From Armatimonadota bacterium (lineage in GTDB: Bacteria > Armatimonadota > Hebobacteria > CAIYQO01), in contig JAGUZN010000220.1 of assembly GCA_020060775.1 (NCBI GenBank), positions 984 to 64,983 of the forward strand: DNA of 64,000 bases, in the 5' to 3' direction. How positions within the stretch are numbered: position 1 is the first letter of the stretch; each line of letters opens with the position of its first letter. The translations under genes were made by a program, and so were the position numbers. The notes beneath the pieces are model-generated. The model searched no databases, was not told where the DNA came from, and saw nothing but the letters and a program-made list of their open reading frames with translations. This document shows positions 1 through 12,647 of the stretch, piece after piece.

Positions 1-2
1 AC

Positions 3-101
3 CAGGTAAGTCAGGTCGTAACCGAGTTCCAACGCTTCCTTGAGGGGCAACTCACAACAGATGACCCGGATGCATTGCCGGTGCTGCAGATCGAGAGGTA
101 A
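3..101 (+). CDS. 3' end of an upstream gene cut by the window edge (product unknown)
   Basis: Frame is open from the window edge (..QRFLEGQLTTDDPDALPVLQIER*) to TAA 99-101, 5 nt before the next ATG. No motif recognised. Confidence 0.3.
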   Translation, partial: QVSQVVTEFQRFLEGQLTTDDPDALPVLQIER

Positions 102-106
102 CTCGG

Positions 107-3016
107 ATGATTCAAGCCTGGGTCTTTTCAAAACTGGAACCAGTCAAAGATGACCCGATGGTGGTCGTGCGTGACCCGTTGGGATTGACGGAAGGCATGG
201 AGAACGCATTACATGCCTGGGGTAAAACACACACCTACGCTGTGATCCCTTGTGCGACTAACCTGCTCTTCCGATATAAATATGAAGAAGCACGGGCGGA
301 TGAAACCATTAAGAAAATACTCATCCTTGATCGTACTCCTTTGAGTCGGCGCACACGTCCTGATTATCATCGAGCAGCGGCGCCGTTCTATCCAGATATA
401 TTGGCGCAAACGCGCCCCGAGGCGTGTATCGAACTGGATCTGCGGCAGTTCTTGCGTGAACAAACAAACGATGCGTATTGGCCACAGGAAGTGAATGAGC
501 CACGCCTGGCCCGCCTGCTCATGAAATATCTCGATGGAGCTCTGCGTGCCCATGAGAATCTACGGGCGGCAAGCCCTGATCGTTTCACCGACCAGGATTT
601 AAAAACGATCATCGCTTTTGCGGCTCTCGGTGTACCGGAAGCTGCTTTTAAGAATCTTTCCGCCAGTGAGTATTGGAAGATCGGTCTGCGTGGTCATCAT
701 GAATTGCGCGGGTTGGAGCAGCTCATGCCTGAGATCACCGAGACGATCACCGGCAAACTGAAGAAGGCACCAGCCCCGTTCTGTTGGCTTGCTGATAAAT
801 ATGACCCAGACACGGTGATCCGGGCTTTTTACCTTTCCGTTGTGTTGGCACAGCATGTGACGCACTGGCAAACGCTGCCGGCGAATGTTGATCCGATCTT
901 TGGGCGTATGGGCGGCATCGCCCCCGAGACCTTGCAGGATGCTGCCCCCAAGCTGGTGAGCCTTGATCCGGCACGAGCGCAAAGCGACATTCGCGCGATG
1001 GAAGATAAGTTGACCGTTAAGAATTTGCATTTTCTGCTACTCGAACAGATGCAAATTGAGGCACGGTTCGCTGAGGTGATCGAGAAAGAGCAATACTCGG
1101 AATTATTCCGTTCCCTCTCGCTCATTCTCGCCCTTGATAATCTCTGCTCAACACACCCGACCCAGGAAGCGCAAAAGCGGGTGAGTGAGGCGTTACTGGC
1201 TAAACGTTCACAACGCGCGCTGGTTGACCTTCGCCCTTCAGCGACCTGGAAAATATTACGACAGGCATATCTCCGTGCCGTACGACTTCTCGCCTTGCGT
1301 GGGCAACTTGGCAAATTCGTCAAGGAGCTTGACCAATTGCCGGAAACTACGCAGGTGCTCTATCTGGCGCCCGGTCAAGAAAAAACCGTTGCCTTTCATG
1401 TGAAGCCGGATATTTCACTAGCCACCAATAGTGAGAGAGCTTCAGGGGAGATGCCATGGGCACTTCGGGTGTGCCCGGTATGTTATGAGCGTGGCTTAAT
1501 AGAAGAAATTAGTACGCGATCTGAAAAATTCGGATCGATCCCCGTCTTGGTTAGTTACATATGCGAAAACGGTTGCCAACCACAGAGTGGCGAACGCCTA
1601 CACAACGATCCAGATGACAAAAAGAGAGAGTATTTTAAGAAATATGATGTCGGTAAATTGGCCGAGATAGAAGAAATGGAAATACCATATTGGTATCCGA
1701 GAAATCGCATGATGAATGCCCCTGAAGATCAGGAATGTTGGGGAGTAAAATGGCGCGCTGGAACTAGTAACTTTCGAACTGTCGACGAGTTGTTTACAAA
1801 ACGAAATTTGTGGGCTCTCGCTGTACTCTTCAATGCAGCTTCTCAAGAGCAGACCAGCGATGTGCTTAGGTTTAGACTGGAAGCCATTTTACTAAATTTG
1901 TCTCGTATGCAAGGTAACACTACTGATCCTCGCTTCCCCAATAACATTATTCGAGGGACTTATTATACACCTCAAATTATGCGTGAATACTCAGTTTTGC
2001 CGTGGTATGCCGGTAAGATACGAAATCTAATTGATGGTTATTCTAAATTATACCCTTCATACCAGGGCTTTGGAGAGGTTTGCATTTCTACACAATCTGC
2101 ATGTTCAATGGATGCCATTCCAGATAATTCACTTGATTACATATTCACTGATCCACCGTATGGGGACAAGGTTCAGTATGGAGAACTCAACTTTGTATGG
2201 GAATCATGGATGGGGTGGAATACACTTTGGCATGATGATGAGATCATAATTAATGACGTCCGGGGCAAGACCGAGCTTGATTGGTCTGAAATGATGGAGT
2301 GTGTAATTAAGGAGTGTTACAGAGTCTTAAAGCCTGGTAGATGGCTCACTTTATGCTATCACGACACTTCGGAGGGAACTTGGGCACTTGTCCAGGACCT
2401 GATGAAAAACGCTGGTTTTATAGTGGACGTTTCAGGCAGTACTCTATTTATCGAGACAGAGCAGAAATCGTTCAACCAGCTTACGGCTGATATCGAAGAA
2501 ATGTTCTTTATGGCGCACCGCATCTCAGCGCTAACACACCGGCATCCCAGGAGCCAGATGGCATGCGGTCTCTACTGCATAATGGCAAAAGGCTTGCTGT
2601 ATGGATTGACGCCCGGAGAGGCCTACCGGTTTATGGTCGAACAGGGGCATCGGTGCTACAACGTCACCCCGTTTCAGCAGGAGATGTCCCATTTCGCGCG
2701 CATCCTCTCTGGCGAACTAATCGGTATGCCTATTAACGAGATTGCCTCCAGCGGCTATGTCATACATACGCTGGAGGCCAGTCTGTGGTGCCTGCTCACA
2801 ACAGGCTCATTCGAGGATGCTGTATTGACGGCGGTGAACCTGGGCGACGATACCGATACGACGGGATGCGTTGCCGGCGGGCTTGCTGGCGTGAGTTACG
2901 GAGATCATGCAATTAATGCTACCTGGTTATCAGTTATTGTCCGGTCATCTGATATGCGAGCGCTGTCGCAGCACTTTCTGGCAGTGATACCGCAAGAGAT
3001 CGGTATAGGAGTGTAG
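107..3016 (+). CDS. Mosaic 969-aa protein: unassigned N-terminal region, then a Zn-ribbon/DPPY DNA-methyltransferase module, then the C-terminal half of an ADP-ribosylglycohydrolase
   Basis: Cys ribbon at CPVC (aa 456-459) and CENGC (aa 486-490). Motif IV LDYIFTDPPYGDKVQYGELNFVW has DPPY at aa 682-685, as in N6A/N4C methylases, but I see no FxGxG/DPFxGSG motif I. From aa ~803 (nt ~2510) the sequence becomes ARH-like (ALTHRHP, GDDTDTTGCVAGGLAG). GC falls at ~1400-2490 and rises again after. Confidence 0.6.
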   Translation: MIQAWVFSKLEPVKDDPMVVVRDPLGLTEGMENALHAWGKTHTYAVIPCATNLLFRYKYEEARADETIKKILILDRTPLSRRTRPDYHRAAAPFYPDILAQTRPEACIELDLRQFLREQTNDAYWPQEVNEPRLARLLMKYLDGALRAHENLRAASPDRFTDQDLKTIIAFAALGVPEAAFKNLSASEYWKIGLRGHHELRGLEQLMPEITETITGKLKKAPAPFCWLADKYDPDTVIRAFYLSVVLAQHVTHWQTLPANVDPIFGRMGGIAPETLQDAAPKLVSLDPARAQSDIRAMEDKLTVKNLHFLLLEQMQIEARFAEVIEKEQYSELFRSLSLILALDNLCSTHPTQEAQKRVSEALLAKRSQRALVDLRPSATWKILRQAYLRAVRLLALRGQLGKFVKELDQLPETTQVLYLAPGQEKTVAFHVKPDISLATNSERASGEMPWALRVCPVCYERGLIEEISTRSEKFGSIPVLVSYICENGCQPQSGERLHNDPDDKKREYFKKYDVGKLAEIEEMEIPYWYPRNRMMNAPEDQECWGVKWRAGTSNFRTVDELFTKRNLWALAVLFNAASQEQTSDVLRFRLEAILLNLSRMQGNTTDPRFPNNIIRGTYYTPQIMREYSVLPWYAGKIRNLIDGYSKLYPSYQGFGEVCISTQSACSMDAIPDNSLDYIFTDPPYGDKVQYGELNFVWESWMGWNTLWHDDEIIINDVRGKTELDWSEMMECVIKECYRVLKPGRWLTLCYHDTSEGTWALVQDLMKNAGFIVDVSGSTLFIETEQKSFNQLTADIEEMFFMAHRISALTHRHPRSQMACGLYCIMAKGLLYGLTPGEAYRFMVEQGHRCYNVTPFQQEMSHFARILSGELIGMPINEIASSGYVIHTLEASLWCLLTTGSFEDAVLTAVNLGDDTDTTGCVAGGLAGVSYGDHAINATWLSVIVRSSDMRALSQHFLAVIPQEIGIGV

Positions 3017-3314
3017 GTCTGCCTCCGTTGATGTGGAACACTCATCGCTCTTATAGCGACAGCTTGCCCTTATTTATCCGTAGGGGGACGTCAATATCAA
3101 TTACTCGCGCTCGAAGACACTGCTCTGCATATGGTTGAAGATAGGCACGAATCGGTCATTTAGCTAATCCGACAGGCACTATAAACGACGTATCCATTGA
3201 TATTGCGGAGTCTCACGAAATCATTGCTGGTTTTGGACCTTAGGCGTATACTTGCTCTGTTGGGCAAGTAGCGTTTGGGTGCAAGCCATAGTAATCGGCT
3301 AATGGCGCTATTCT

Positions 3315-4388
3315 TTGAAAGGCGTGGAGCAGACCGTGGCAAAGTTGTTCATGAACGGCCTACAGCTAATTCTATCTTCCGATAGCTTCACTGCATACGA
3401 GGCAGAAATGCCCGAAGATGGTAGCTTGCGGAAACTGCGCGACCGATATGGCGACGGGTGGTTTTTCCATCGTCAAGGTAATAAGGTATATGGTTTTCCA
3501 CAAGTCGATCGTCCTACCATCCCATTTGGCACGTCCGTAGCATTAAAATGCCAAGAAAACCTTTCTATGCTAGCTGCGGTAGTCGGTGATATTATAGGAC
3601 GACGTCGATTCGGAGGCCAGGTATTATTCCGTCATCGTGGTGCGGAGTTCATCAGTAGTACAAAGGAACTCATCAGTGATGTCGCCAAACAAATGCCGGA
3701 TCTTCCCGACATAGTCAAGTTATTCAAAGCTTATCCACGTTTTACTTTAGAGGCAAAAGTCCTTGAGCTACGCGATGGCGATGGTGGGATCGGGTTATTC
3801 GTTACGTTGGGAAGCAGGTGGCGTATCGAAGCACCTCTCCACGATCTGTTGAGTAAAGGTATTGACCTTCAAGGTATGTACGTCGTTCGAAGGTATCCCG
3901 AGAAAGGCCAGCGGAGGCTTGTTGGTAGAATCTCCTGCATTGATAAAGGAACCGTCAAATTGCTAGAGTCATTCGACGGTACGGCTGAGATTGCGTGCGA
4001 CGACGTGTGGCTTGAAGGGAATAGAGAAAATTTTGCCTATTGCTTGAAGCACTTACTGAAGGCGCGTTACCTATCATTTGAGACTAAGCGTAGGGAAATA
4101 GAAGACCAGTTATTGTCGGGGCCTAAATTTCAGACAACGATACAAAGCATTGCACAGTCATTTACAAATAAGCCTCCCATGCAACTCACTCCTGATCTCC
4201 AGTGCATTGTTGGCGATATGATTTCCGTGAAAAATTTCGGCGGATACTGCACTGTGCGTGCCGCTTCTCCAGTGCAATGTTGCTATGATGCTGCACGGAC
4301 GCAACGGATGGAGTATCCCTGGAAAGGGATCGAAAATTTGGTCCGTTTAGTCGTGACACCTTTACAAGAAAATCACCGACGATACTAG
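3315..4388 (+). CDS. Prokaryotic Argonaute, N-terminal half (N/L1/PAZ-like/L2 region), separated from MID-PIWI by a frame change
   Basis: 357-aa ORF ends 2 nt before the MID-PIWI ORF and lies in another frame. Its length fits the N-terminal half of a long pAgo. No motif is readable by eye. Start is uncertain (TTG 3315 or ATG 3351). Confidence 0.55.
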   Translation: MKGVEQTVAKLFMNGLQLILSSDSFTAYEAEMPEDGSLRKLRDRYGDGWFFHRQGNKVYGFPQVDRPTIPFGTSVALKCQENLSMLAAVVGDIIGRRRFGGQVLFRHRGAEFISSTKELISDVAKQMPDLPDIVKLFKAYPRFTLEAKVLELRDGDGGIGLFVTLGSRWRIEAPLHDLLSKGIDLQGMYVVRRYPEKGQRRLVGRISCIDKGTVKLLESFDGTAEIACDDVWLEGNRENFAYCLKHLLKARYLSFETKRREIEDQLLSGPKFQTTIQSIAQSFTNKPPMQLTPDLQCIVGDMISVKNFGGYCTVRAASPVQCCYDAARTQRMEYPWKGIENLVRLVVTPLQENHRRY

Positions 4389-4390
4389 TT

Positions 4391-5605
4391 GTGTTCCCCG
4401 ATAGTGAACAAGGACCTGTTGAACGATTCCTTCGTTCGTTTCGCGACGGGATATCGTCGTCAGCCTTTGCATCTGGCTTTGTCAGGAACTTTTCTCTCGT
4501 CAACTTAAAGATTGAAAAGGTGCGAGTACCCTGGCTGGGGAAAGGGAGTCAGGCTCCTGCGCAAGCGTATAGAAAGGCGATAGATGATTACTTGGCATCC
4601 GCAGATTCGGTGCCAGATGCTGGGATCGTCATTCTCCTAGACGAACATGCCAAACTTCCCGATGCGGTAAACCCGTATCTACATGCTAAATCATCATTGC
4701 TCACGGCAGGTGTCCCGGTCCAGGAACTACGGGTGCCGACTATCAAGCAAGCTGACACATCGCTTTCCTATACCCTGCGTAACATCGCTCTCGCTCTGTA
4801 TGCAAAAATGGGGGGAACCCCATGGACAGTCGACCAGGATATGACGATCAGCGATGAACTGGTGATTGGCATGGGGAGCTGCGCACTCGCAGAGAGCCGT
4901 TTTATAGAGCGTGAAAGATATGTTGGCATCACTACCGTCTTTCGAGGAGATGGCAGCTACCTACTGGGGAACATCTCCAAAGAATGTCCGTACCGTGAAT
5001 ATCCGCAAGTTCTGGAGAGCGAAACTATATCTGTATTGAATGAAATCAAATATCGGAACGGTTGGCGTCCCGGTGATACCGTGCGGATCATATTTCACAC
5101 CTACAAACCATTAAAAAATATCGAGGTAGAAGCGATTGCTGCCAAGTGTGTGCAAGCTATCAGCGGTGAGCAGAATATCGAGTTTGCATTCCTCACGATT
5201 TCTCATGATCACCCTTTTAGACTTTTTGATATCGACCAGCAAGGTATCAAGGGTACGAAAGGCATCTATGTTCCCCAGAGGGGAATTATTATGCAGCTTG
5301 GACGATACACTAGGTTGCTTTGTACAACAGGACCAGAGTTAGTCAAACGTGAAGGATTGCCTTTGCCAGCACCTCTGCTTGTTCATCTGCATCCTGCATC
5401 AACCTACCGTTCATTAGATTACCTAGCTGAACAAGTATTGAAATTTACTGCGCTCTCGTGGCGTTCGACATTGCCTGCGCCGAAACCAGTAACAATCTTT
5501 TACTCTGACCTGATTGCGCAATTCCTGGGTCGCTTACAGCGTATTCCTGATTGGTCTCCGGCAACTCTAAACGCAAAATTACGTGCGAGTCGGTGGTTTC
5601 TATGA
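4391..5605 (+). CDS. Prokaryotic Argonaute MID-PIWI half, predicted catalytically inactive
   Basis: MID-like ILVVFPD strand and NPYLHAKSSLL..VPVQEL (Y-x3-K..Q 5'-end pocket). PIWI hallmarks LRNIALALYAKMGGTPWTV and PVTIFYSDLIAQ. The positions expected for DEDX aspartates read VIGMG and IIFHTYK. This frame is already open from 4289. Confidence 0.8.
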   Translation: MFPDSEQGPVERFLRSFRDGISSSAFASGFVRNFSLVNLKIEKVRVPWLGKGSQAPAQAYRKAIDDYLASADSVPDAGIVILLDEHAKLPDAVNPYLHAKSSLLTAGVPVQELRVPTIKQADTSLSYTLRNIALALYAKMGGTPWTVDQDMTISDELVIGMGSCALAESRFIERERYVGITTVFRGDGSYLLGNISKECPYREYPQVLESETISVLNEIKYRNGWRPGDTVRIIFHTYKPLKNIEVEAIAAKCVQAISGEQNIEFAFLTISHDHPFRLFDIDQQGIKGTKGIYVPQRGIIMQLGRYTRLLCTTGPELVKREGLPLPAPLLVHLHPASTYRSLDYLAEQVLKFTALSWRSTLPAPKPVTIFYSDLIAQFLGRLQRIPDWSPATLNAKLRASRWFL

Positions 5606-6843
5606 CGACGTATTTGTCAGGAGTATATGCTCAGCAACTTAGTACCCTAGCGACACATATCGCTGATGATGCAGTGTGGCCATCTCCGTACGCCGGGTTT
5701 CTTTACTATCTGTGTAACAAATACGATCAGCAGTTTCTGGCACCTTTGATTAACCCTTCACCGCCATGTGTTGAGCTCGGGCGGCTTTACGAGGCACCGA
5801 TTCTTGCATCAGCAGGATATTTATTCGCGCTTAACCATCCTGTAGTTCGTGCAAGTTCCGAAGCTTGGCATATTGGGTTTCAACGGCTTGCTGGGCGCGA
5901 TCCCTTCCCAATTGACCGCCAGTCATTCGTATATCGTCCAATAGAACTGCTTGGTATTACACTTGGAGTGAAGCACTGCCCTAATACTACGCAGGCAGAG
6001 ATTGATTGGCTTATAAATGTGCTACAGAGTGCTGAAAGCCGGCTGAAGAGTGCGTCCTGTTGGCAGTACCTGCTTGGTATGTATGCTTCACGACTACTGG
6101 GTAATTCCTGGGCAAAGCGTTCCTGGGATATTGGGCAATTCCCTGTGGATGACTTGAGCATCGTGGTATGGCTGTGCGCCAATACTCCTGATTTAGCGTT
6201 TGAATTCGGTGTAGACCAATTATACAAGCAAGCAGAGGAATCATTACTGACCCAGTGTGCAAAAACGGAGGTTACCATCCCAGATCCCGCACGTGCTGCA
6301 ATACTCTACTCTAGTCTTGACCGAGCTGTGAGCCGGAGTATTGAATCAGAGCACGAGCGCAATTGGCAAATAGGCCGTGATCAAGCCGATGCCCTCTCAA
6401 TCGTTATCACGTTATGCCGTAGATTTGATTTGTGTGTAAGGCAACTCCAACGTAGGCAGCGAAGTCGCAATCCTTTCACTGTACAAGATGAGTATGATGT
6501 CCAAGACCTGATGCATGCTTTGTTGAAGTTACACTTTGATGATGTTCGTCCCGAGGAGTGGACACCGTCATATGCTGGCAACGCATCACGCGTCGATTTT
6601 TTGCTTAAACGAGAGATGATCGTTGTTGAGGTAAAGATGACTCGCGATAGCCTAGCTCAACGTGAGCTAGCGGACCAATTAATTATTGATAAAGAGCGGT
6701 ATCGATCACATTCTGACTGCCGTATACTGGTGTGTTTTGTTTATGATCCGGAGCATCGCTGCACGAACCCGGCAGCATTGGAGAATGACCTCAGCGAGCA
6801 GATCGGTCTATTTAGGGTTGAAGCAATCGTCTCACCTGCGTAG
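5602..6843 (+). CDS. pAgo-associated protein with a C-terminal PD-(D/E)xK nuclease-like domain
   Basis: Its ATG overlaps the pAgo stop (ATGA at 5602-5605). The C-terminal ~110 aa read DEYDVQDLMH..RVDFLLKREMIVVEVKMTR, giving an E..D..E-x-K core. The N-terminal ~300 aa are unassigned. Confidence 0.65.
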   Translation: MTTYLSGVYAQQLSTLATHIADDAVWPSPYAGFLYYLCNKYDQQFLAPLINPSPPCVELGRLYEAPILASAGYLFALNHPVVRASSEAWHIGFQRLAGRDPFPIDRQSFVYRPIELLGITLGVKHCPNTTQAEIDWLINVLQSAESRLKSASCWQYLLGMYASRLLGNSWAKRSWDIGQFPVDDLSIVVWLCANTPDLAFEFGVDQLYKQAEESLLTQCAKTEVTIPDPARAAILYSSLDRAVSRSIESEHERNWQIGRDQADALSIVITLCRRFDLCVRQLQRRQRSRNPFTVQDEYDVQDLMHALLKLHFDDVRPEEWTPSYAGNASRVDFLLKREMIVVEVKMTRDSLAQRELADQLIIDKERYRSHSDCRILVCFVYDPEHRCTNPAALENDLSEQIGLFRVEAIVSPA

Positions 6844-7290
6844 GTCTGCGGAGCAATGTTATGCAAATGCAATTCGTCGTACATCCGAGAACGTATGAGA
6901 TCAACGGCTATTTCTTTCAAGTGCTGTCATGTTGCGCGTTGACTGATGGGCAGGCAGCTAATGCTGCCATGCATTTTTATCAAACACATAAGCTAAAGAA
7001 GAAAGACAAAGGAAAATTAATTAAAGTCATAACGAGCCCTGATACGGATACTGCAGGAATCTTTGGGTAGCACGGCTACCTATGACTACAGATACGCCAA
7101 CCTAAGTTATGCAACGTGATCTGAAGGAAGCATTCAGCAGTATTACCAGGTTACTCCTACATGAGCGTGAGGAGTATTCATTAGGTCGGTCCAAAGACCG
7201 TGCTGATATTTTAAGCGCAGGGTCTCCAATTCCCTCATGGCAGCCCCTGCGACCATTACCTATGTGGATGGTCCTTCACTTATTTGATAC

Positions 7291-8298
7291 TTACAGATCA
7301 AGCAATGATGCCGAATTCTCTTGAAACAACACCCCCATGCGGATATACCGCTGCACCATCACATTCGACCGATGACCGGTCTGCTGCATGATAGATCGCT
7401 CGTTTGCACCTGCACGGGCGGCGGCGGTGCAGTGGCCGGCGCGCAGGGAGTGACCGCTGTAGCGTTTCGGATCAAGGCCGATCTCTTTCACCATCTTCTT
7501 GATGAGATTGGCGACGGCACGATCCGATAAGCGCTCACTGCAGAGTTTGTCATGACGGTTGATGCCGCGGAAGAGGGCGCCGCCGGTAATCCCGCTGGAT
7601 TCCAGCCAGGATTTCAAGGCACGCACTGGACAGGTTTCTTCATGAGTGCCAAATGGTATGGCGACCCAACGCCCTTCACCTTCTTGATCTGTTTTTGATC
7701 GGCGGAGGCAGATAACGACTCCTTCCTCCCTGAAGGTCAGGTCGGCGACATCAAAGGCGACCAACTCGGAGCGCCGGAAGGCGCCAGCGTATCCCAGGAG
7801 TAGCAGTGCGCGGTCCCGCCGGCCTTTCAATGTCTCTGGTAATACCGCCATGATGCGTCTCATGTCATCGGTCATCAAGGCATCGACCTGGCGGGCGGTG
7901 ACGCCGATCCGCCGGCGAATGCCGCGCATGACGGCCCGCACGGCGGCGTGTTGGGTGGGGGAGGGGTGGCCAGCGTGTTGGTGGATGGCGCTGATGGCGG
8001 CCATATAGCGCGAGAGCGTGCTGTACTTGTGGTCGGTCGTCGCCATCGCCGTCATGTAGCAGGCAATCGTCTCAGGGCTGGCCGGCATCGACGGCAAGTG
8101 GTATTGTTCGCACCAGGCCACGAACTGCTGCCAATCCCGCTCGTAGGCCTCCCGCGTGTGTTGCGAGATACCTTCCTCGATGAACTCCTGGACTTGCTCG
8201 ATCAGTGGAACGAGAAGGGTGTGATCGGGGTGCTGGTTGGCACTGGGCCCGATCCGGGCAGGCAGTGATGCTGGCTGGGTGATGGGAGCCTGATCCAT
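7291..8298 (-). CDS. Tyrosine recombinase / phage-type integrase (XerC/D-like)
   Basis: N-terminal SAM-like domain (TREAYERDWQQFVAWC). C-terminal catalytic signature RRSELVAF..HSLRAGHCT..TGHRSNVMVQRYIR (R..HxxR..H..Y). Confidence 0.85.
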   Translation of the reverse strand: MDQAPITQPASLPARIGPSANQHPDHTLLVPLIEQVQEFIEEGISQHTREAYERDWQQFVAWCEQYHLPSMPASPETIACYMTAMATTDHKYSTLSRYMAAISAIHQHAGHPSPTQHAAVRAVMRGIRRRIGVTARQVDALMTDDMRRIMAVLPETLKGRRDRALLLLGYAGAFRRSELVAFDVADLTFREEGVVICLRRSKTDQEGEGRWVAIPFGTHEETCPVRALKSWLESSGITGGALFRGINRHDKLCSERLSDRAVANLIKKMVKEIGLDPKRYSGHSLRAGHCTAAARAGANERSIMQQTGHRSNVMVQRYIRMGVLFQENSASLLDL

Positions 8299-8301
8299 TA
8301 A

Positions 8302-8519
8302 CTGAGTCTTATCGGAAGCTAGAATAGCTTCGAGCTCAGAATAGAGTCAAGTCGCGCCAGTTCAATCCTAAATGTGTTCCCCCTCGGGCTGTCCCCAGCC
8401 GTCATCCTCTGCATTTTCTACCCGAAATGCCTCTAGGCGAGTACGTTTGGCTACACATTTTGCCCTGGAGGTGCCATGTGTTCACGACAGATCGGTTTCT
8501 AGCTTCCGTTAAGACTCAG
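8302..8519. repeat. 23-bp inverted repeat pair enclosing a 172-bp segment (candidate invertible element or MITE)
   Basis: 8302-8324 is CTGAGTCTTATCGGAAGCTAGAA. The reverse complement of 8497-8519 is CTGAGTCTTAACGGAAGCTAGAA, 22/23 identical. The left repeat begins 4 nt from the recombinase start codon. Confidence 0.7.
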
Positions 8520-8561
8520 ATATGAGCTACAACGTGTCTGGTAACACCGGTAGGGGGCAGG

Positions 8562-8927
8562 GTGCGTAATACGTTACTTTTAGTTGGTGGCGGCGAATTA
8601 TCAACGCTCATCTACAAGCCTGCCCTGGAGGACGCCAATTTTCAGGTAATCCTTACGCCTGATGCACGGGTGGCAGTGCAAATGGTCATACAGTACCATG
8701 CTCAAAGTATTCTCATTGATGATTCGATTCAGCCCAGTCAAGCTGAGGAAATCATCACCAATATCCATCAACTCACCCCAACAGTTAAGAGCATTTTGCT
8801 CTGTGATGGCGATAATATCAGTGATAATGCTCTCCAGTACCTGTTTGATGGCATATATCAGAAAAGCTGGCCATTACCAGTTTTAGTCACACTGGTTCGT
8901 TTTCTTCTGTGTCAGCAGGAGTCCTAA
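8562..8927 (+). CDS. CheY-like receiver-domain protein, probably a pseudo-receiver
   Basis: 121 aa with a GTG start after GGGGGCAGG. REC-like layout LLLVGGG..ILIDDSI..SILLCDG..YQKSWP, but the N-terminal acidic DD pair is replaced by GG. The gene is AT-rich relative to its flanks. Confidence 0.4.
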   Translation: MRNTLLLVGGGELSTLIYKPALEDANFQVILTPDARVAVQMVIQYHAQSILIDDSIQPSQAEEIITNIHQLTPTVKSILLCDGDNISDNALQYLFDGIYQKSWPLPVLVTLVRFLLCQQES

Positions 8928-8964
8928 GCAACCCGGCGTTTGCTAGAGTGGAAGAATGGGAAGC

Positions 8965-9144
8965 TTGACAATCCAAGCTGAAGAGCGTATCGTTTCACCA
9001 TATTAATGCATACCTCAACTATGTCCGAGATGCATATCGCCGTCTGCATTACCTGGGAGACATAACCGTCGCATCCGGGCACGCTGCGCTTTTTTCACCT
9101 CTTCCCGGATGCCGGGAAGGGGTTTTCTTTTTCAGGGGGTCCGT
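8965..9144 (+). promoter_or_regulatory. Leader cassette X1: promoter, 19-codon uORF and intrinsic terminator upstream of a nucleotidyltransferase gene
   Basis: TTGACA 8965-8970, 17-nt spacer, TATCGT 8988-8993. uORF 9006-9065 encodes MHTSTMSEMHIAVCITWET*. Terminator at 9098-9132. Blocks CCGTCTG, TGGG, ATAACCGTCG, CCGGG and the terminator are shared with the cassette at 22590-22769. Confidence 0.55.
9098..9132 (+). terminator. Rho-independent terminator / attenuator hairpin
   Basis: CCTCTTCCCGG-ATG-CCGGGAAGGGG forms an 11-bp stem with one G-U pair, followed by TTTTCTTTTT. Confidence 0.7.
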
Positions 9145-9939
9145 TTGATTGCGCTTCGAGGCGATACCCGCTTGTTGCCTTTGGTCTCATGGTGGCAGAC
9201 AGAAATCCATACCGTGTTAAGCGACAAGCTGCAAGCGGTGGTGCTGGGCGGCAGCACGGTGCTTGGCGATTTCCAGCCGGGGTGGAGCGATGTCGATGTC
9301 TGCGTGGTGCTGCGTACGCCGATCACGGAAGCCGAAGGCGCTGTTATCGGACAGGTGCACGACGCCATGCGTGCCCACTTCATCGACGGTGGGCAAGATG
9401 GCTGGCGATCAGGTCAGGCCATTGAAGGTGCCTATATCACCGGCGAGATGTTGCAGTATGGACACGCTGGCACCTGTTACGTCGCCGGCGGTAGCACGCG
9501 CTGGTGGGGTGTGAAAGATCCTATTTCGCCGTTCGACCGCCTGATATATGCCCAACACGGTTGCTGGTTGTTTGGTGAAGAAGTGCCTATTGCCCTGCCA
9601 GATGGAAAGGCTTTGCGGGCACAATCTATCCGCGATTCGCAGGAATTCATAAACCCACCAGCCGGGTGCCTGGAATCCGCCATCTGGCTGGCCGGCATCA
9701 TGCACTGGTTGTCCCGCACGCTGGTCTTCTGGCGGGATGGGGAACTGGTATCCAAAACCGCCGCGCTGGAGCGCGAGGTCGCCGCTGGTAGACCGCTGGC
9801 GAGCGCCTTCATCCTGCCCCTGGCCTTGCGGCGGGAGGGGAGTGCAGCGTGCCGGCAGCATGTTGATGATCTTCGGTATAATTACCAGGCGAATCTTGAT
9901 ACGGCTGTGCAGTCATTGGTCGAAGTCGGACTGCTGTAA
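9145..9939 (+). CDS. Nucleotidyltransferase-domain protein (aminoglycoside/small-molecule adenylyltransferase-like)
   Basis: VVLGGSTVLGDFQPGWSDVDVCVVL matches the GS-x(n)-D-x-D polymerase-beta-type NTase motif. The ATG at 9109 lies inside the terminator hairpin, so I moved the start to TTG 9145, 5 nt after AGGGGG. Confidence 0.6.
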   Translation: MIALRGDTRLLPLVSWWQTEIHTVLSDKLQAVVLGGSTVLGDFQPGWSDVDVCVVLRTPITEAEGAVIGQVHDAMRAHFIDGGQDGWRSGQAIEGAYITGEMLQYGHAGTCYVAGGSTRWWGVKDPISPFDRLIYAQHGCWLFGEEVPIALPDGKALRAQSIRDSQEFINPPAGCLESAIWLAGIMHWLSRTLVFWRDGELVSKTAALEREVAAGRPLASAFILPLALRREGSAACRQHVDDLRYNYQANLDTAVQSLVEVGLL

Positions 9940-9951
9940 TAGGGAGGCTAT

Positions 9952-10497
9952 ATGTCCGGATGGATCGAGACTATGAGCAACGTGCAACTGCTACACCCGA
10001 CCACTGATATTGAGCCGGAATACCGGGCGTTCATCGCCGAATTTATCGAGCAGCAGGAGCCAGAGATGTTTTATCGTCTGCCGGGAGACGACTTCGCTGA
10101 ATTCGTGGCGCAGTTGCACCGAGAGGCGCGAGGCGAGGGGCTGCCGGACTGGGCCGTGCCGCAAAATACCCTCTGGGCGGTGCGCGACGCACGGCTGGTT
10201 GGCGTGTTGAAGCTGCGCCATCGCCTCACCCCGGCGCTAGAGAGCCGTGGCGGGCACATCGGCTACTTCGTGCGTCCCTCGGCGCGCGGGCGCGGAATTG
10301 CCACCCGCATGCTGGCGATGGCGCTCGACAAGGCACGAGCCCTTGGCCTCACCCGCGTGCTACTCACCTGCGACATTGACAACCATGCCTCAGCCCGCGT
10401 AATGGTGAAGAACGGCGGCGTGCGCACCACCGACAGCGCGGACCCCGGCACCGGGTTGCCGCTGGCGCGATATTGGATCGATTTGGAGACAAGATGA
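9952..10497 (+). CDS. GNAT-family N-acetyltransferase
   Basis: GHIGYFVRPSARGRGIATRMLAMALDKARALG matches the acetyl-CoA-binding motif A (R/Q-x-x-G-x-G/A). Confidence 0.75.
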   Translation: MSGWIETMSNVQLLHPTTDIEPEYRAFIAEFIEQQEPEMFYRLPGDDFAEFVAQLHREARGEGLPDWAVPQNTLWAVRDARLVGVLKLRHRLTPALESRGGHIGYFVRPSARGRGIATRMLAMALDKARALGLTRVLLTCDIDNHASARVMVKNGGVRTTDSADPGTGLPLARYWIDLETR

Positions 10498-11126
10498 CGC
10501 AGACCCACTCGGCCATCCGCTGCACCCTCTTCGACTTCGCCGGCACGCTCAGCCCCACGCCGTACTTCTGGCCGCTGGGGGCCGACTTTTGCGCGGTGGT
10601 GACGGAGGCCATCTTTACCGGGGAGAACAAGGTACGCTGGGCCAGCCAGTGGTGCCGCGGTCAGCTCACTTCGTTGGATATCGCGAATTATCTCTCCGGG
10701 TTGACCGGTCTGTCGCCGGAACGCATCCTTACCGCATTAGACGAGGGCTGTGCCAAACTGCAGTTGCATCCGGCTATCTGGCGTTTTGCACAGGCTCAGC
10801 GGGCGCAGGGACGGCGTACTGCGCTGGTGACAATCAACATGGACGTCTTCACCCGCGTCGTCGCCCCCGCGCACGGCTTTAACCGGGTGTTCGATGTGGT
10901 GGTGAACTCGGCGGACTACGGCACGGAGGAGAAGAACGCGCTGTGCGAGATTGCCTTCGGTCAGTTGGATGGCTGCACCTTCGAGAACAGCCTGCTTATC
11001 GATGATATGCCAAAGTGTCTGGACGCCTTTCGGGCATGCGGGGGGATGGCGTACCAGTATACGACGGATGAGGCGTTTGCAGAATGGGCGCAAACTCTGG
11101 AGGAGAGTGGATATGTCCTGGCCTAA
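10494..11126 (+). CDS. HAD-superfamily hydrolase
   Basis: ATGA overlap with the GNAT stop. N-terminal CTLFDFAGTL is a DxxxT-type motif I, and a late LLIDDMP motif is present. Confidence 0.55.
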   Translation: MTQTHSAIRCTLFDFAGTLSPTPYFWPLGADFCAVVTEAIFTGENKVRWASQWCRGQLTSLDIANYLSGLTGLSPERILTALDEGCAKLQLHPAIWRFAQAQRAQGRRTALVTINMDVFTRVVAPAHGFNRVFDVVVNSADYGTEEKNALCEIAFGQLDGCTFENSLLIDDMPKCLDAFRACGGMAYQYTTDEAFAEWAQTLEESGYVLA

Positions 11127-11805
11127 AGCACTATTGCTGGATTTCTACGGGACGGTGGTACTGGATGACGATGCAGCGTTGACCGCTATTTGTGAAAAAG
11201 TGGCCTTGGTTGCCGCGCAGGACGTGTCAGCCAAAGACGTCGCCTCCTACTGGTGGAGGCAGTTTACCGAACTCTTCCAACAAAGTCACGGTGACGAATT
11301 TCGAACGCAAGTGGAACTCGACATTCTCTCCCTCGAGCGGGTACTGGACCATTTCTGTGCACCACTTGATGCCAAGGCGCTAATCTCACCGCTCTTTACG
11401 TACTGGGAAACACCGGAAATGTGGCCGGAAGCGCGTGAAGTATTAGAGCAATGTGATCTGCCAATTTGCCTGGTCTCGAACATCGACAATGCAGAACTCG
11501 CTATCGCGCTACAGAGGAACAATCTCACCTTTCAGTATATCGTCACCAGCGAGGATTGCCGCGCCTACAAGCCGCATCCGGCGCCTTTTATGCGCGCGCT
11601 GGAATTACTCGGATTGGAGCCACACGAGTTATTGCATGTAGGCGATTCGTTGACCAGTGACGTGCGGGGCGCACAGGCGCTGGGCATTCCGACGTTATGG
11701 ATTAACCGGACGGGGCGAAAGCTTCCGGAAGATTGTTCGCCTGAATATGTTGCGACTGATCTATATGGCCTACTTTCGGTATGCGTAACGGCGGTAACGC
11801 CATGA
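11113..11805 (+). CDS. HAD-superfamily hydrolase (haloacid dehalogenase-like)
   Basis: LLDFYGTVV (motif I), VSNID, YKPHPAPF and HVGDSLTSDVRGAQALG (motifs III/IV). Start taken at the internal ATG 11113. Confidence 0.7.
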   Translation: MSWPKALLLDFYGTVVLDDDAALTAICEKVALVAAQDVSAKDVASYWWRQFTELFQQSHGDEFRTQVELDILSLERVLDHFCAPLDAKALISPLFTYWETPEMWPEAREVLEQCDLPICLVSNIDNAELAIALQRNNLTFQYIVTSEDCRAYKPHPAPFMRALELLGLEPHELLHVGDSLTSDVRGAQALGIPTLWINRTGRKLPEDCSPEYVATDLYGLLSVCVTAVTP

Positions 11806-12647
11806 AGGTTGAACGGTTTGATGATCCTCACGCCTTTTGCGACCGGGTGCTCCCCCTGTTGCTGCGGCATGAGGCCGAGAACAACCTGATGATCAGCGTC
11901 GCTCTGCGCCTGGCAGACGGCACCGGCACGTGGGGTGATGCCCCACCCGTGCTGTATGCGGTGGAAGATGCCGGACAGATGATAGCTGCAGCGCTGCAGA
12001 CACCGCCGCATTACCTGCAACTGACGCGGATGGGGGAAGATGCGCTTGCGTGTCTCGTTGATGCGTTACGGGCTGGCAATCATGCACTGCCGGGCGTGTT
12101 GGGGCCCGTCGGGGTGGTAGAGACATTCGCAAAGCGCTGGGCAGATGGCCGTGAGCTACAGGCACAGGTTGAGAAAGGTATGGGCATCTACCAGTTGGAG
12201 CGTGTGGTACCGCCGGCGCATCCTGGCGGGCTACAGGCGTTAGCAACCGAAGACGATATCCCCCTGCTGCTGGAATGGCTGCGAGATTTCTTCCACGACA
12301 CCGGGCTCCCGGAGCAGGAGAACGAAGCGCTCATACGCAAGGCGCTGTCTGATGAACGCTTTTTTCTCTGGCAAGCTCCTGCCCCCGTCTCGCTGGCGGC
12401 CTGCTGCGGCCCGACGCCGCACGGCATGCGCATCAACTCCGTCTATACCCCGCCGGAGCAGCGGGGCAAGGGCTATGCCTCCGCCAACGTCGCCGCGCTC
12501 AGCCAGCACCTGCTGGACAACGGCTGCCTGTTCTGTTATCTGTTTACTGATCTCGACAACCCGACCTCGAACAGCATCTACCAGAAGATCGGGTACCGGC
12601 GGGTGTGCGAGTTTACGTCGGTGCGGTTTACCGATGTGCAGGGGTAA
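11802..12647 (+). CDS. GNAT-family acetyltransferase (two-domain type)
   Basis: ATGA overlap with the upstream stop. C-terminal YTPPEQRGKGYASANVAALSQHLLDNG is motif A. Confidence 0.65.
   Translation: MKVERFDDPHAFCDRVLPLLLRHEAENNLMISVALRLADGTGTWGDAPPVLYAVEDAGQMIAAALQTPPHYLQLTRMGEDALACLVDALRAGNHALPGVLGPVGVVETFAKRWADGRELQAQVEKGMGIYQLERVVPPAHPGGLQALATEDDIPLLLEWLRDFFHDTGLPEQENEALIRKALSDERFFLWQAPAPVSLAACCGPTPHGMRINSVYTPPEQRGKGYASANVAALSQHLLDNGCLFCYLFTDLDNPTSNSIYQKIGYRRVCEFTSVRFTDVQG

What the first reader, a model, noticed from the sequence alone, without database searches (positions are those of the whole stretch)
107..3016. One 969-aa ORF is an in-frame mosaic of three unrelated pieces (unassigned N-terminal region / Zn-ribbon DPPY methyltransferase without motif I / C-terminal half of an ADP-ribosylglycohydrolase)
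Seen directly: the ORF is uninterrupted, but base composition changes twice, being moderately GC-rich to ~1400, AT-rich at 1400-2490, then GC-rich at 2500-3016. The protein content changes at the same points. The middle piece carries a Cys ribbon and DPPY (aa 682-685) with the ..YGELNFVW context typical of Zn-ribbon adenine/cytosine DNA methylases, yet I find no SAM-binding motif I anywhere in the ORF. The last ~165 aa start mid-fold of an ADP-ribosylglycohydrolase (ALTHRHP .. GDDTDTTGCVAGG), lacking the N-terminal metal-binding half. Either this is a recombination scar in a decaying defence island that happened to stay in frame, or it is a genuine new fusion. It sits directly upstream of the pAgo operon.
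Basis: partly seen in the sequence, partly recalled or inferred. Interest (0 to 1): 0.55.

Follow-up and report, generated by a model that had tools for sequence, protein, structure and literature searches.

The report
Deletion-scarred BREX gene remnant fused ORF
This long open reading frame is most likely not a new multidomain enzyme but the in-frame wreck of a phage-defence (BREX-like) operon, in which three deletions welded fragments of pglZ, its neighbouring DNA methylase gene and an unrelated ADP-ribosylglycohydrolase gene into one catalytically dead reading frame.

Summary
ORF 107-3016 (969 aa) is uninterrupted, GC steps 0.53 -> 0.43 -> 0.54, DPPY is at aa 682-685, no SAM motif I exists, and the last ~175 aa are the C-terminal half of an ADP-ribosylglycohydrolase (ARH).

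There are four co-linear fragments of three genes:
- PglZ aa 1-408.
- A ~45-aa piece of the PglZ C-terminus.
- The middle of a PglXI-type methylase (family profile 212-554 of 839).
- ARH (profile ~131-295 of 298).

pglZ and this methylase are adjacent genes in intact BREX-like operons (BrxC-PglZ-MTase-BrxL). A close relative (L010, 78% nt identity) holds every missing segment and shows the same native GC drop from pglZ to the methylase gene.

Each fragment lacks its parent's catalytic core: the PglZ domain, the SAM-binding strands, and the N-terminal ARH metal site. Two billion-scale protein searches found no other protein with this architecture. BrxL is absent from the window, and the downstream pAgo is frameshifted.

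Verdict: a recent deletion scar (a chimeric pseudogene) in a decaying defence island. Interest is low. The parent operon family, which pairs BrxL with a PglXI-type methylase, may deserve its own look.

The parts
3..101 (+). 3' end of the upstream BrxC-like ATPase gene (stop at 99-101). It places the ORF at the pglZ position of a BREX-like operon.
   Evidence: The translation ...VVTEFQRFLEGQLTTDDPDALPVLQIER* matches the BrxC C-termini of L001 and L004 (...VVREFQAFLEAQL...DTLPVLQIE*). Window 2-1329 aligns to L010 9484-10809 at 78% nt identity.
107..1330 (+). Fragment 1: PglZ N-terminal domain, ORF aa 1-408 (family profile positions 1-413 of 970).
   Evidence: Profile of 113 PglZ relatives, 542.6 bits, E 1e-166. 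51% identity to P0006 aa 1-415. 81-85% aa identity to L010. Relative P0241 continues as normal PglZ after ...FVKEL.
1330..1336 (+). Junction 1: internal pglZ deletion of about 1.4 kb. It removes profile positions 414-881, that is, the whole PglZ phosphodiesterase-like domain.
   Evidence: Only these 7 nt are unaligned between the two L010-matching blocks (L010 ..10809 and 12211..). GAGCT is present at both breakpoints in L010.
1337..1467 (+). Fragment 2: short piece of the PglZ C-terminal region, ORF aa ~411-454 (profile positions ~882-925 of 970).
   Evidence: 70% aa identity over 57 aa to L010 12199-12369, E 8e-19, and 75% nt identity. Profile score 12.0 bits against a maximum of 2.0 in 5000 shuffles. 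Six full-length PglZ proteins place it at their residues ~875-925.
1468..1471 (+). Junction 2: deletion of the pglZ 3' end, the intergenic spacer and the first ~211 codons of the methylase gene. The lost methylase part includes motif I and the first Zn finger.
   Evidence: Three-way nucleotide comparison. The window follows the L010 pglZ 3' end up to ..GGTG and the L010 methylase gene from GGTG.. onward, and GGTG is shared by both proxies. The methylase profile match starts at position 212.
1472..2491 (+). Fragment 3: middle of a PglXI/BrxXI-type N6-adenine methylase, ORF aa ~456-795 (profile 212-554 of 839). It holds the second Zn ribbon (C456/C459/C485/C489), the rest of the nested TRD, and the catalytic strands carrying DPPY (nt 2150-2161).
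   Evidence: 554 bits, E 2.5e-170 against a profile of 6 relatives. 52-63% identity to P0002, P0003 and the L001 methylase. PADLOC PglXI model positions 338-607 of 919. Pfam N6_N4_Mtase scores only 21.4 bits, below the 26.7 cut-off, and covers model positions 2-56 only.
2491..2492 (+). Junction 3: deletion from methylase codon ~555 to codon ~106-130 of an ARH gene. It removes the methylase C-terminal ~285 aa, BrxL and anything else that lay between.
   Evidence: Methylase homology ends at D795 (nt 2491) in all relatives. Nucleotide homology to the intact ARH gene of L006 starts at nt 2492. GCTGA is present in both proxies.
2492..3016 (+). Fragment 4: C-terminal ~58% of an ADP-ribosylglycohydrolase with its own stop codon, ORF aa 796-969. 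It keeps the C-terminal DDTDT metal motif (aa 914-918, nt 2846-2860).
   Evidence: Pfam PF03747 model 139-285 of 287, E 1e-33. Profile of 51 full-length ARHs, positions 127-295 of 298. 69% identity to P0122 aa 106-269. Aligns to residues 174-328 of the 332-residue solved chain 8za7.
3315..5605 (+). Neighbour, not part of the ORF: a long pAgo split into two frames (3315-4388 and 4391-5605) by an apparent 1-nt frameshift near nt 4325-4340.
   Evidence: One PADLOC pAgo_II model covers both ORFs contiguously (positions 2-314 and 334-724 of 724). The second frame is open back to at least nt 4301 and reads ..KFGPFSRDTFTRKSPTILVVFPD.
5551..6843 (+). Neighbour: pAgo-associated helical-REase gene, apparently intact.
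   Evidence: PADLOC Aga_Helical-REase, E 1.7e-74, model positions 5-374 of 378.
7291..8298 (-). Neighbour: tyrosine recombinase at the right edge of the lower-GC island.
   Evidence: Pfam Phage_integrase 7e-22 plus Phage_int_SAM_1. GC rises from about 0.45-0.50 to 0.6 or more here.

Best explanation
The ORF is a chimeric pseudogene, the remnant of a BREX-like defence operon (BrxC - PglZ - PglXI-type methylase - BrxL) that suffered three deletions.

The three deletions:
1. About 1.4 kb inside pglZ was lost, removing the whole PglZ catalytic domain.
2. About 0.8 kb was lost, spanning the pglZ 3' end, the short intergenic spacer and the first ~211 codons of the methylase gene. This took out SAM-binding motifs I/II and the first Zn finger.
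3. A larger deletion ran from methylase codon ~555 into the middle of an unrelated, co-oriented ARH gene. It removed the methylase C-terminal DNA-binding domains and BrxL.

Each junction happens to preserve the reading frame, so a gene caller sees one 969-aa protein that starts at the native pglZ start codon and ends at the native ARH stop codon.

Shown:
- The fragment identities and the breakpoints.
- The intact arrangement in relatives.
- The absence of every catalytic core.
- The uniqueness of the architecture.

Inferred:
- The deletions arose by microhomology-mediated illegitimate recombination or replication slippage. Motifs of 4-5 nt are shared at the breakpoints in proxy parents.
- The deletions are recent, because the retained fragments show no excess decay.
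- Any translated product has no methylase, PglZ or ARH activity.
For: Operon context:
- Intact operons have pglZ immediately followed by this methylase and then brxL (L001, L004, L009).
- The window's first 101 nt are the brxC 3' end.
- The close relative L010 (78% nt identity) carries complete BrxC, PglZ, methylase and BrxL coding content.

Fragments and breakpoints:
- The window ORF aligns to L010 as co-linear blocks separated by gaps of ~1.4 kb and ~0.8 kb.
- Family profiles place the fragments at PglZ 1-413 and 882-929, methylase 212-554 of 839, and ARH 127-295 of 298.
- The weak PglZ-tail match is real: 0 of 5000 shuffles reach its score, and it has 70% identity to L010.

Lost catalytic cores:
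- In intact relatives the SAM motif I block (P0002 aa 77-127, DPFCGSGGT) aligns to CcrM, RsrI and MboIIA motif I, and lies upstream of the retained part.
- The ARH fragment covers only residues 174-328 of solved chain 8za7.
- Family-conserved columns (>=95% conserved) falling in segments absent from the ORF number 93 for PglZ, 204 for the methylase (only 6 sequences) and 18 for ARH.

Uniqueness:
- No other protein shares the architecture in a 5.8e9-protein search or an exhaustive search of 1.84e9 representatives.
- The missing segments are not elsewhere in the 64-kb window.

Composition, decay and junction chemistry:
- The pglZ-to-methylase GC step is native: 0.55 -> 0.42 in L010.
- The adjacent pAgo is frameshifted.
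- An independent PglZ-methylase mosaic with different breakpoints exists in another degraded locus (P0380/L011). So such scars recur.
- Shared GAGCT, GGTG and GCTGA occur at the three breakpoints in proxy parents.
Against: - Three independent junctions all in frame has a naive chance of about 1/27. The ORF was flagged because it is long, which is an ascertainment bias, but this is still a mild oddity.
- The retained fragments show no excess substitutions at family-invariant columns: 62 of 64, 101 of 113 and 34 of 34 are kept, within the range of genuine family members. Recent deletion would give this result, but so would continued selection.
- The native Shine-Dalgarno-like GAGAGG and the start codon are intact, so the chimera may well be translated.
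- The true ancestors are not available. The proxies are 70-78% identical in DNA, so the microhomology calls are only suggestive.
- Read-level support for the junctions could not be examined.
Confidence: 0.85

Rival explanations
1. Genuine neo-functional fusion. The in-frame chimera is expressed and kept by selection. It might act as a scaffold, decoy or regulator through the PglZ N-terminal domain and the methylase DNA-recognition (TRD/Zn-ribbon) part, without catalysis.
For: - All three junctions are in frame.
- The native start and SD-like site are retained.
- No decay is seen at invariant positions.
- A second PglZ-methylase mosaic exists elsewhere.
Against: - The architecture is unique among billions of proteins.
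- The second mosaic has different breakpoints and sits in a scrambled locus.
- Every breakpoint cuts through a domain rather than a linker. The Rossmann fold loses strands 1-2, the ARH helical fold loses its first ~170 residues, and only a ~45-aa sliver of the PglZ C-terminus remains.
- The partner gene BrxL is gone, and the neighbouring pAgo is frameshifted.
Confidence: 0.05
2. Assembly or sequencing artefact. The contig is a chimeric or collapsed assembly, and the junctions do not exist in the organism's DNA.
For: - Only one contig carries this protein.
- The pAgo frameshift lies next to an AAAA run and a GGG run, and could be an error.
Against: - The joined segments are co-linear, co-oriented and in the native gene order of one operon. 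Deletions would give this pattern, but random chimeras would not.
- The proxy parents share only 4-5 nt at the breakpoints. That is too short for k-mer-driven mis-joins.
- Other long genes in the window are intact, such as LeuRS (871 aa) and SMC (1190 aa). This argues against an error-prone assembly.
Confidence: 0.07
3. Mosaic made by recombination between two different BREX-like operons (cassette exchange) rather than by simple deletions within one operon.
For: - The affinities are discordant. The PglZ fragment is closest to L010 (81%) and L004 (51%). The methylase fragment is closest to L001 (63%) and only 46-50% identical to the L010 methylase.
- The methylase position and copy number vary among operons.
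Against: - L010 shows the same low-GC methylase next to a higher-GC pglZ. So methylase cassette exchange probably predates the deletions and does not replace them.
- The losses of PglZ 414-881, methylase 1-211 and methylase 555-839 still require deletions.
Confidence: 0.03

Closest known systems
BREX PglZ (PF08665-containing, ~970 aa) of BrxC-PglZ-MTase-BrxL operons
   Same: ORF aa 1-408 are a well-conserved copy of the family's N-terminal domain (profile E 1e-166; 81-85% identity to L010). They sit at the native position after brxC and use the native start codon. A sliver of the C-terminal region is also present.
   Different: The entire PglZ (alkaline-phosphatase/NPP-like) domain, profile positions 414-881, is deleted. 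Pfam PF08665 gives no hit on the ORF.
PglXI/BrxXI-type N6-adenine DNA methylase of Type-3 BREX and BREX-related systems (PF01555 core with nested Zn-finger TRD and C-terminal HTH triad; PMC12839542)
   Same: The ORF keeps part of the nested TRD with one 4-Cys ribbon, and the catalytic motif IV DPPY with the following core strands. PADLOC PglXI gives E 7e-55. Identity to intact relatives is 52-63%.
   Different: It lacks the N-terminal segment, core strands 1-2 with SAM motif I (DPFCGSGGT in relatives), the first Zn finger and the ~285-aa C-terminal region. The Pfam score is below the gathering threshold. It cannot bind SAM in the canonical way.
ADP-ribosylglycohydrolase family (PF03747; solved relatives Lmo0067 8za7, DraG 2woc, Tri1-like 6dre)
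   Same: The C-terminal ~165 residues are 69% identical to the nearest full-length relative P0122. All 34 family-invariant columns in this part are retained, including the DxDT metal motif.
   Different: The N-terminal ~40% of the fold is missing. That part carries the N-terminal conserved motifs, which by established ARH3/DraG structural knowledge supply half of the binuclear metal site.
Fusion pseudogenes / deletion scars in decaying defence islands
   Same: Co-linear fragments of neighbouring genes are joined at short microhomologies. Partner genes are lost, and a neighbouring system is frameshifted. An independent example exists in the same operon family (L011).
   Different: It is unusual only in that three successive junctions all stayed in frame and gave a 969-aa ORF.

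Membership tests
PglZ (BREX core protein, PF08665) | PglZ/NPP-like catalytic domain with metal-binding residues | tested here: not met
   No PF08665 hit on the ORF. Family profile positions 414-881 are absent. 93 family-conserved columns lie in the missing parts.
PglZ (BREX core protein, PF08665) | Family-specific N-terminal domain, and a gene position directly after brxC | tested here: met
   Profile positions 1-413, E 1e-166. The brxC 3' end lies 5 nt upstream.
PglXI/BrxXI-type N6-adenine methylase (PF01555) | Catalytic motif IV (D/N)PP(Y/F) | tested here: met
   DPPY at aa 682-685. It aligns to the DPPY of P0002 and P0003 and to CcrM residues 25-69.
PglXI/BrxXI-type N6-adenine methylase (PF01555) | SAM-binding motif I (FxGxG) on core strands 1-2 | tested here: not met
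   The relatives' motif I block (P0002 aa 77-127) lies upstream of profile position 212, where the ORF match begins. No library finds it in the ORF.
PglXI/BrxXI-type N6-adenine methylase (PF01555) | C-terminal DNA-binding (HTH-like) region of ~285 aa | tested here: not met
   Profile positions 555-839 are absent. Homology stops at D795.
PglXI/BrxXI-type N6-adenine methylase (PF01555) | Pfam gathering score | tested here: not met
   21.4 bits against a cut-off of 26.7.
ADP-ribosylglycohydrolase (PF03747) | C-terminal DxDT metal-binding motif and C-terminal helices | tested here: met
   DDTDT at aa 914-918. Pfam model positions 139-285, E 1e-33. 34 of 34 invariant columns are kept.
ADP-ribosylglycohydrolase (PF03747) | N-terminal half of the fold with the N-terminal metal-binding motifs | tested here: not met
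   Pfam model positions 1-138 are absent. There is no counterpart to 8za7 residues 1-173 or to P0122 aa 1-105. No ARH N-terminal half is found elsewhere in the window.
Complete BREX-like system | Intact BrxC, PglZ, methylase and BrxL genes in one locus | tested here: not met
   Only the last 99 nt of brxC are visible at the window edge. pglZ and the methylase gene are truncated and fused. tblastn finds no BrxL in the 64-kb window.

The most novel reading that the evidence does not exclude
The in-frame chimera is translated and has been co-opted. It could act as a catalytically dead DNA-binding scaffold, or as a dominant-negative 'off-switch' for BREX-type immunity. Recurrent in-frame PglZ-methylase deletion fusions (this ORF and P0380) would then be a selected route for silencing these operons, rather than random decay.
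Probability: 0.04. Interest if true: 0.55.

Novelty: new member of a known kind. Interest (0 to 1): 0.15.

Why it matters
It matters mainly as a caution.
- A 969-aa 'hypothetical protein' that looks like an exotic PglZ-methylase-ARH fusion is a deletion scar. It should be annotated as a pseudogene, not counted as a new domain architecture or a new defence gene.
- It documents at near-nucleotide resolution how a BREX-like operon is dismantled: three deletions with short sequence shared at the breakpoints in proxy parents, the methylase SAM site and PglZ catalytic domain both removed, and BrxL lost.
- The by-products may be more useful than the finding itself. The parent operon family combines BrxL with a PglXI-type nested-TRD methylase. 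A 2026 survey treats BrxL as absent from Type-3 BREX, the type that uses this methylase. The methylase also appears to move between operons as a low-GC cassette.

Tried and rejected
- The look-up of encoding contigs on the exact ORF product found no record.
- The genome-contig scan did not recover the source genome or any close relative. It found only a 33%-identical methylase in a Vulcanimicrobiota MAG. The source organism therefore remains unnamed.
- No tRNA gene is in the window to mark an integration site.
- A mixed-family MAFFT alignment (A1) forced unrelated PglZ, methylase and ARH regions into common columns, so I did not use it for structure prediction. No structure was predicted. Fold completeness was judged from profile coordinates and from alignments to solved chains.
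- Alignments of some methylases that run past aa 795 to ~817 proved to be chance extensions, not shared junctions.
- Direct and inverted repeats in nt 1-3400 gave only short two-copy matches of the kind expected by chance. One is a 19-nt 84% repeat spanning J3.
- No operon partner of the nearest intact ARH (L006) is present in the window.
- I considered that the GC shift at ~1450 marks foreign DNA. I rejected this because L010 shows the same step.
Full report
**Observation.** The ORF at 107..3016 (+) is real: 969 aa, ATG start, no internal stop. Composition steps twice. GC is 0.529 (GC3 0.55) for nt 107-1330, 0.434 (GC3 0.41) for nt 1436-2491 and 0.544 (GC3 0.62) for nt 2492-3013. DPPY is at aa 682-685, and a 4-Cys ribbon lies at C456/C459/C485/C489. 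Pfam, NCBIfam and PADLOC find no SAM-binding motif I anywhere in the ORF. The C-terminus matches Pfam ADP_ribosyl_GH only over model positions 139-285 of 287 (E 1e-33).

**What the pieces are.** A search of 5.8e9 proteins with the whole ORF returned only the ORF itself at full length. All other hits fell into two classes. One class is ~970-aa PglZ-domain proteins that match ORF aa 1-~410. The other is ~845-aa PF01555 methylases that match ORF aa ~445-795. The 'unassigned' N-terminal region is thus the N-terminal domain of a BREX PglZ protein.

I built family profiles from 113 PglZ, 6 methylase and 51 full-length ARH relatives. They place the ORF as follows:

| ORF aa | Parent | Profile positions |
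|---|---|---|
| 1-410 | PglZ | 1-413 of 970 |
| 414-463 | PglZ (weak second match) | 882-929 of 970 |
| 452-795 | methylase | 212-554 of 839 |
| 792-960 | ARH | 127-295 of 298 |

The weak PglZ-tail match is genuine.
- It scores 12.0 bits, against a maximum of 2.0 in 5000 shuffles.
- Six full-length PglZ proteins independently align it to their residues ~875-925.
- It is 70% identical over 57 aa (E 8e-19) to the corresponding part of a close relative.

The ORF therefore consists of four co-linear fragments from three genes.

**Genomic logic.** Intact relatives sit in operons ordered ~386 aa - ~173 aa - BrxC-like (1450 aa) - PglZ (~975 aa) - methylase (~845 aa) - BrxL. In L001, pglZ and the methylase gene are only 13 nt apart. 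The first 101 nt of the window encode a BrxC C-terminus (...ALPVLQIER*) like that of L001 and L004. So the ORF starts at the native pglZ start codon.

The exhaustive search of 1.84e9 representatives gave a close relative, P0241, at 81% identity. P0241 tracks the ORF up to ...FVKEL (aa 408) and then continues as ordinary PglZ. Its contig, L010, carries complete BrxC, PglZ, methylase and BrxL coding content. That content is interrupted only by frame switches. The Flye-style contig name suggests a long-read assembly, so these may be indel errors; this is an inference and was not checked.

The window aligns to L010 in blocks:

| Window nt | L010 nt | nt identity |
|---|---|---|
| 2-1329 | 9484-10809 | 78% |
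| 1337-1460 | 12211-12334 | 75% |
| 1468-1744 | 13156-13433 | 70% |

Relative to L010, the window has lost about 1.4 kb inside pglZ. It has also lost about 0.8 kb spanning the pglZ 3' end, the spacer and the methylase 5' end. L010 shows the same composition step, with pglZ at 0.549 and the methylase gene at 0.422. The first GC shift is therefore a native property of this operon lineage, not a mark of foreign origin.

**Third junction.** Methylase homology ends at D795 (nt 2491) in every relative. Nucleotide homology to the nearest intact ARH gene (L006, P0122, 69% aa) starts at nt 2492. That intact ARH sits in a different defence-type cluster, and none of its operon partners is present in the window.

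tblastn with intact BrxC, PglZ, methylase, BrxL and ARH proteins found none of the missing segments anywhere in the 64-kb window. They are lost, not relocated.

**Why the product should be dead.**
- *PglZ.* The PglZ catalytic domain (profile positions 414-881) is entirely absent, and PF08665 does not hit the ORF.
- *Methylase.* In intact relatives the SAM-binding block (P0002 aa 77-127...LVLDPFCGSGGTALAA...) aligns to motif I of CcrM, RsrI and MboIIA. The DPPY block (aa 426-470) aligns to their N-terminal motif IV. This fits the published PglXI/BrxXI architecture, where a Zn-finger TRD is nested after core strand 2 and a triad of HTH-like domains follows the core (PMC12839542). The ORF begins after strands 1-2 and after the first Zn finger, and it ends before the C-terminal domains. 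Its Pfam score is 21.4 bits, below the gathering threshold of 26.7.
- *ARH.* The fragment corresponds to residues 174-328 of the 332-residue solved chain 8za7. It keeps the DDTDT motif. It lacks the N-terminal half, which by established ARH3/DraG structural knowledge supplies the other metal ligands.

**How it formed (inferred).** I compared the window with the proxy parents nucleotide by nucleotide. Each breakpoint shows short shared sequence: GAGCT at J1 (nt 1330-1336), GGTG at J2 (nt 1468-1471) and GCTGA at J3 (nt 2491/2492). This fits microhomology-mediated deletion. The proxies are only 70-78% identical, so the point is suggestive rather than proven.

The retained fragments show no excess change at family-invariant columns: 62 of 64, 101 of 113 and 34 of 34 are kept, within the range of genuine members. 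The deletions are therefore probably recent.

The neighbouring pAgo is split into two frames. One PADLOC model covers both ORFs contiguously, and the second frame stays open across the boundary. That points to a single recent frameshift and matches a decaying island. A tyrosine recombinase and a rise in GC mark the island's right edge. LeuRS and SMC further along show that the window is chromosomal.

Neither is met.

Among 385 relatives fetched, only one other protein matches two of the parent profiles. This is P0380, in the 3.3-kb contig L011. It is an independent PglZ(468-592)-methylase(371-574) mosaic with different breakpoints. Its locus is scrambled, with a BrxC N-terminal fragment lying downstream of a toxin-antitoxin pair. 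That supports recurrent decay rather than a conserved design.

The one oddity is that three junctions all kept the frame, a naive chance of about 1/27. The ORF was noticed because it is long, so ascertainment bias explains much of this. I give a functional co-option reading about 4-5%, and an assembly artefact about 7%. Against an artefact, the joined blocks are co-linear and in native operon order, the shared sequences are too short for k-mer mis-joins, and other long genes in the window are intact.

**Comparison with the known.** The parents belong to known families:
- BREX PglZ.
- PglXI/BrxXI-type PF01555 methylase (PADLOC PglXI 1.8e-111 for the intact L001 gene).
- ARH (PF03747).

The ORF fails the defining catalytic feature of each, so it should not be filed as a member of any of them. 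It is a new instance of a known phenomenon, a deletion-derived fusion pseudogene.

**Verdict.** The 'recombination scar in a decaying defence island' reading is supported, with a corrected anatomy: four fragments and three junctions, with two parents that are operon neighbours. Interest is low (0.15).

The more interesting by-product is the parent operon family itself. It combines BrxL with a PglXI-type methylase. A recent survey treats BrxL as absent from Type-3 BREX, the type that uses this methylase. The family also shows variable methylase position and copy number, and discordant PglZ and methylase ancestry.

Noticed in passing
window 3315-5605 (frameshift near 4325-4340): The long pAgo downstream is split into two ORFs in different frames. 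One PADLOC pAgo_II model covers both contiguously, and the second frame is open across the boundary. The shift lies next to an AAAA run and a GGG run. It is either a real recent frameshift or a sequencing error.
   Followed up: partly
L001 993-15630; L004 3866-19782; L008 1209-13755; L009 2955-17168; L010 3484-19327: The parent operon family has the order ~386 aa - ~173 aa (neither has a Pfam or PADLOC hit) - BrxC-like 1450 aa - PglZ ~970 aa - PglXI-type PF01555 methylase - BrxL. PMC12839542 describes BrxL as specific to Type-1/4 BREX and absent from Type-3, which uses this methylase type. This may therefore be an uncatalogued BREX subtype. More than 110 PglZ homologues were seen across many phyla.
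   Followed up: partly
L009 4658-7168 and 14481-17039; L008 1209-3755: The methylase gene's position and copy number vary. L009 has two paralogous methylases flanking BrxC-PglZ. L008 has the methylase upstream of BrxC, with an AAA_15/21 + DUF4276 pair inserted. L004 has extra PDDEXK and Zn-ribbon genes around the methylase.
   Followed up: no
L010 14800-15198, 16131-16442, 16861-17181: There are three same-strand copies of the methylase C-terminal (~90-130 aa) domain in and downstream of the methylase gene. They might be spare specificity-domain cassettes or duplication remnants.
   Followed up: no
window 1436-2491 vs L001, L004, L010: The ancestry is discordant. The window's PglZ fragment is 81-85% identical to L010, but its methylase fragment is only 46-50% identical to the L010 methylase and 63% identical to that of AT-rich L001. 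Both the window and L010 methylase genes have low GC (~0.42-0.43) next to higher-GC pglZ. This suggests the methylase is exchanged between operons as a cassette.
   Followed up: partly
L011 901-2493 (P0380) and 3112-3204: This is an independent in-frame PglZ(468-592)-methylase(371-574) mosaic in another lineage. A PIN/antitoxin-like pair follows it, then a stray BrxC N-terminal fragment. It is a second degraded remnant of the same operon family.
   Followed up: partly
P0277 (526 aa): This PglZ relative matches the ORF in two stretches (query 3-185 and 282-417) with the intervening ~96 residues missing. It is possibly another internal in-frame deletion in a pglZ N-terminal domain.
   Followed up: no
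L006 7350-11642: The nearest intact ARH (P0122) lies in an apparent operon WYL regulator - 444 aa unknown - ARH - 259 aa unknown. The operon sits inside a defence-type cluster (Z1, DUF4420, AIPR, SNF2 helicase). It comes from the same ENA sample (ERZ25039519) as the close BREX relative L010.
   Followed up: no
window 1660-1678 and 2485-2503: A 19-nt imperfect direct repeat (84%), GGCCGAGATAGAAGAAATG / GGCTGATATCGAAGAAATG, has its second copy spanning junction 3. It encodes AEIEEM and ADIEEM. It is probably chance.
   Followed up: partly
window 1-7300 vs 7300-12000: The BREX remnant, ARH remnant and pAgo operon form a lower-GC block (0.43-0.54). A tyrosine recombinase gene (7291-8298, minus strand) bounds it on the right, and flanking DNA is at 0.57-0.68 GC. 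No tRNA gene is present. The left boundary lies beyond the window.
   Followed up: partly
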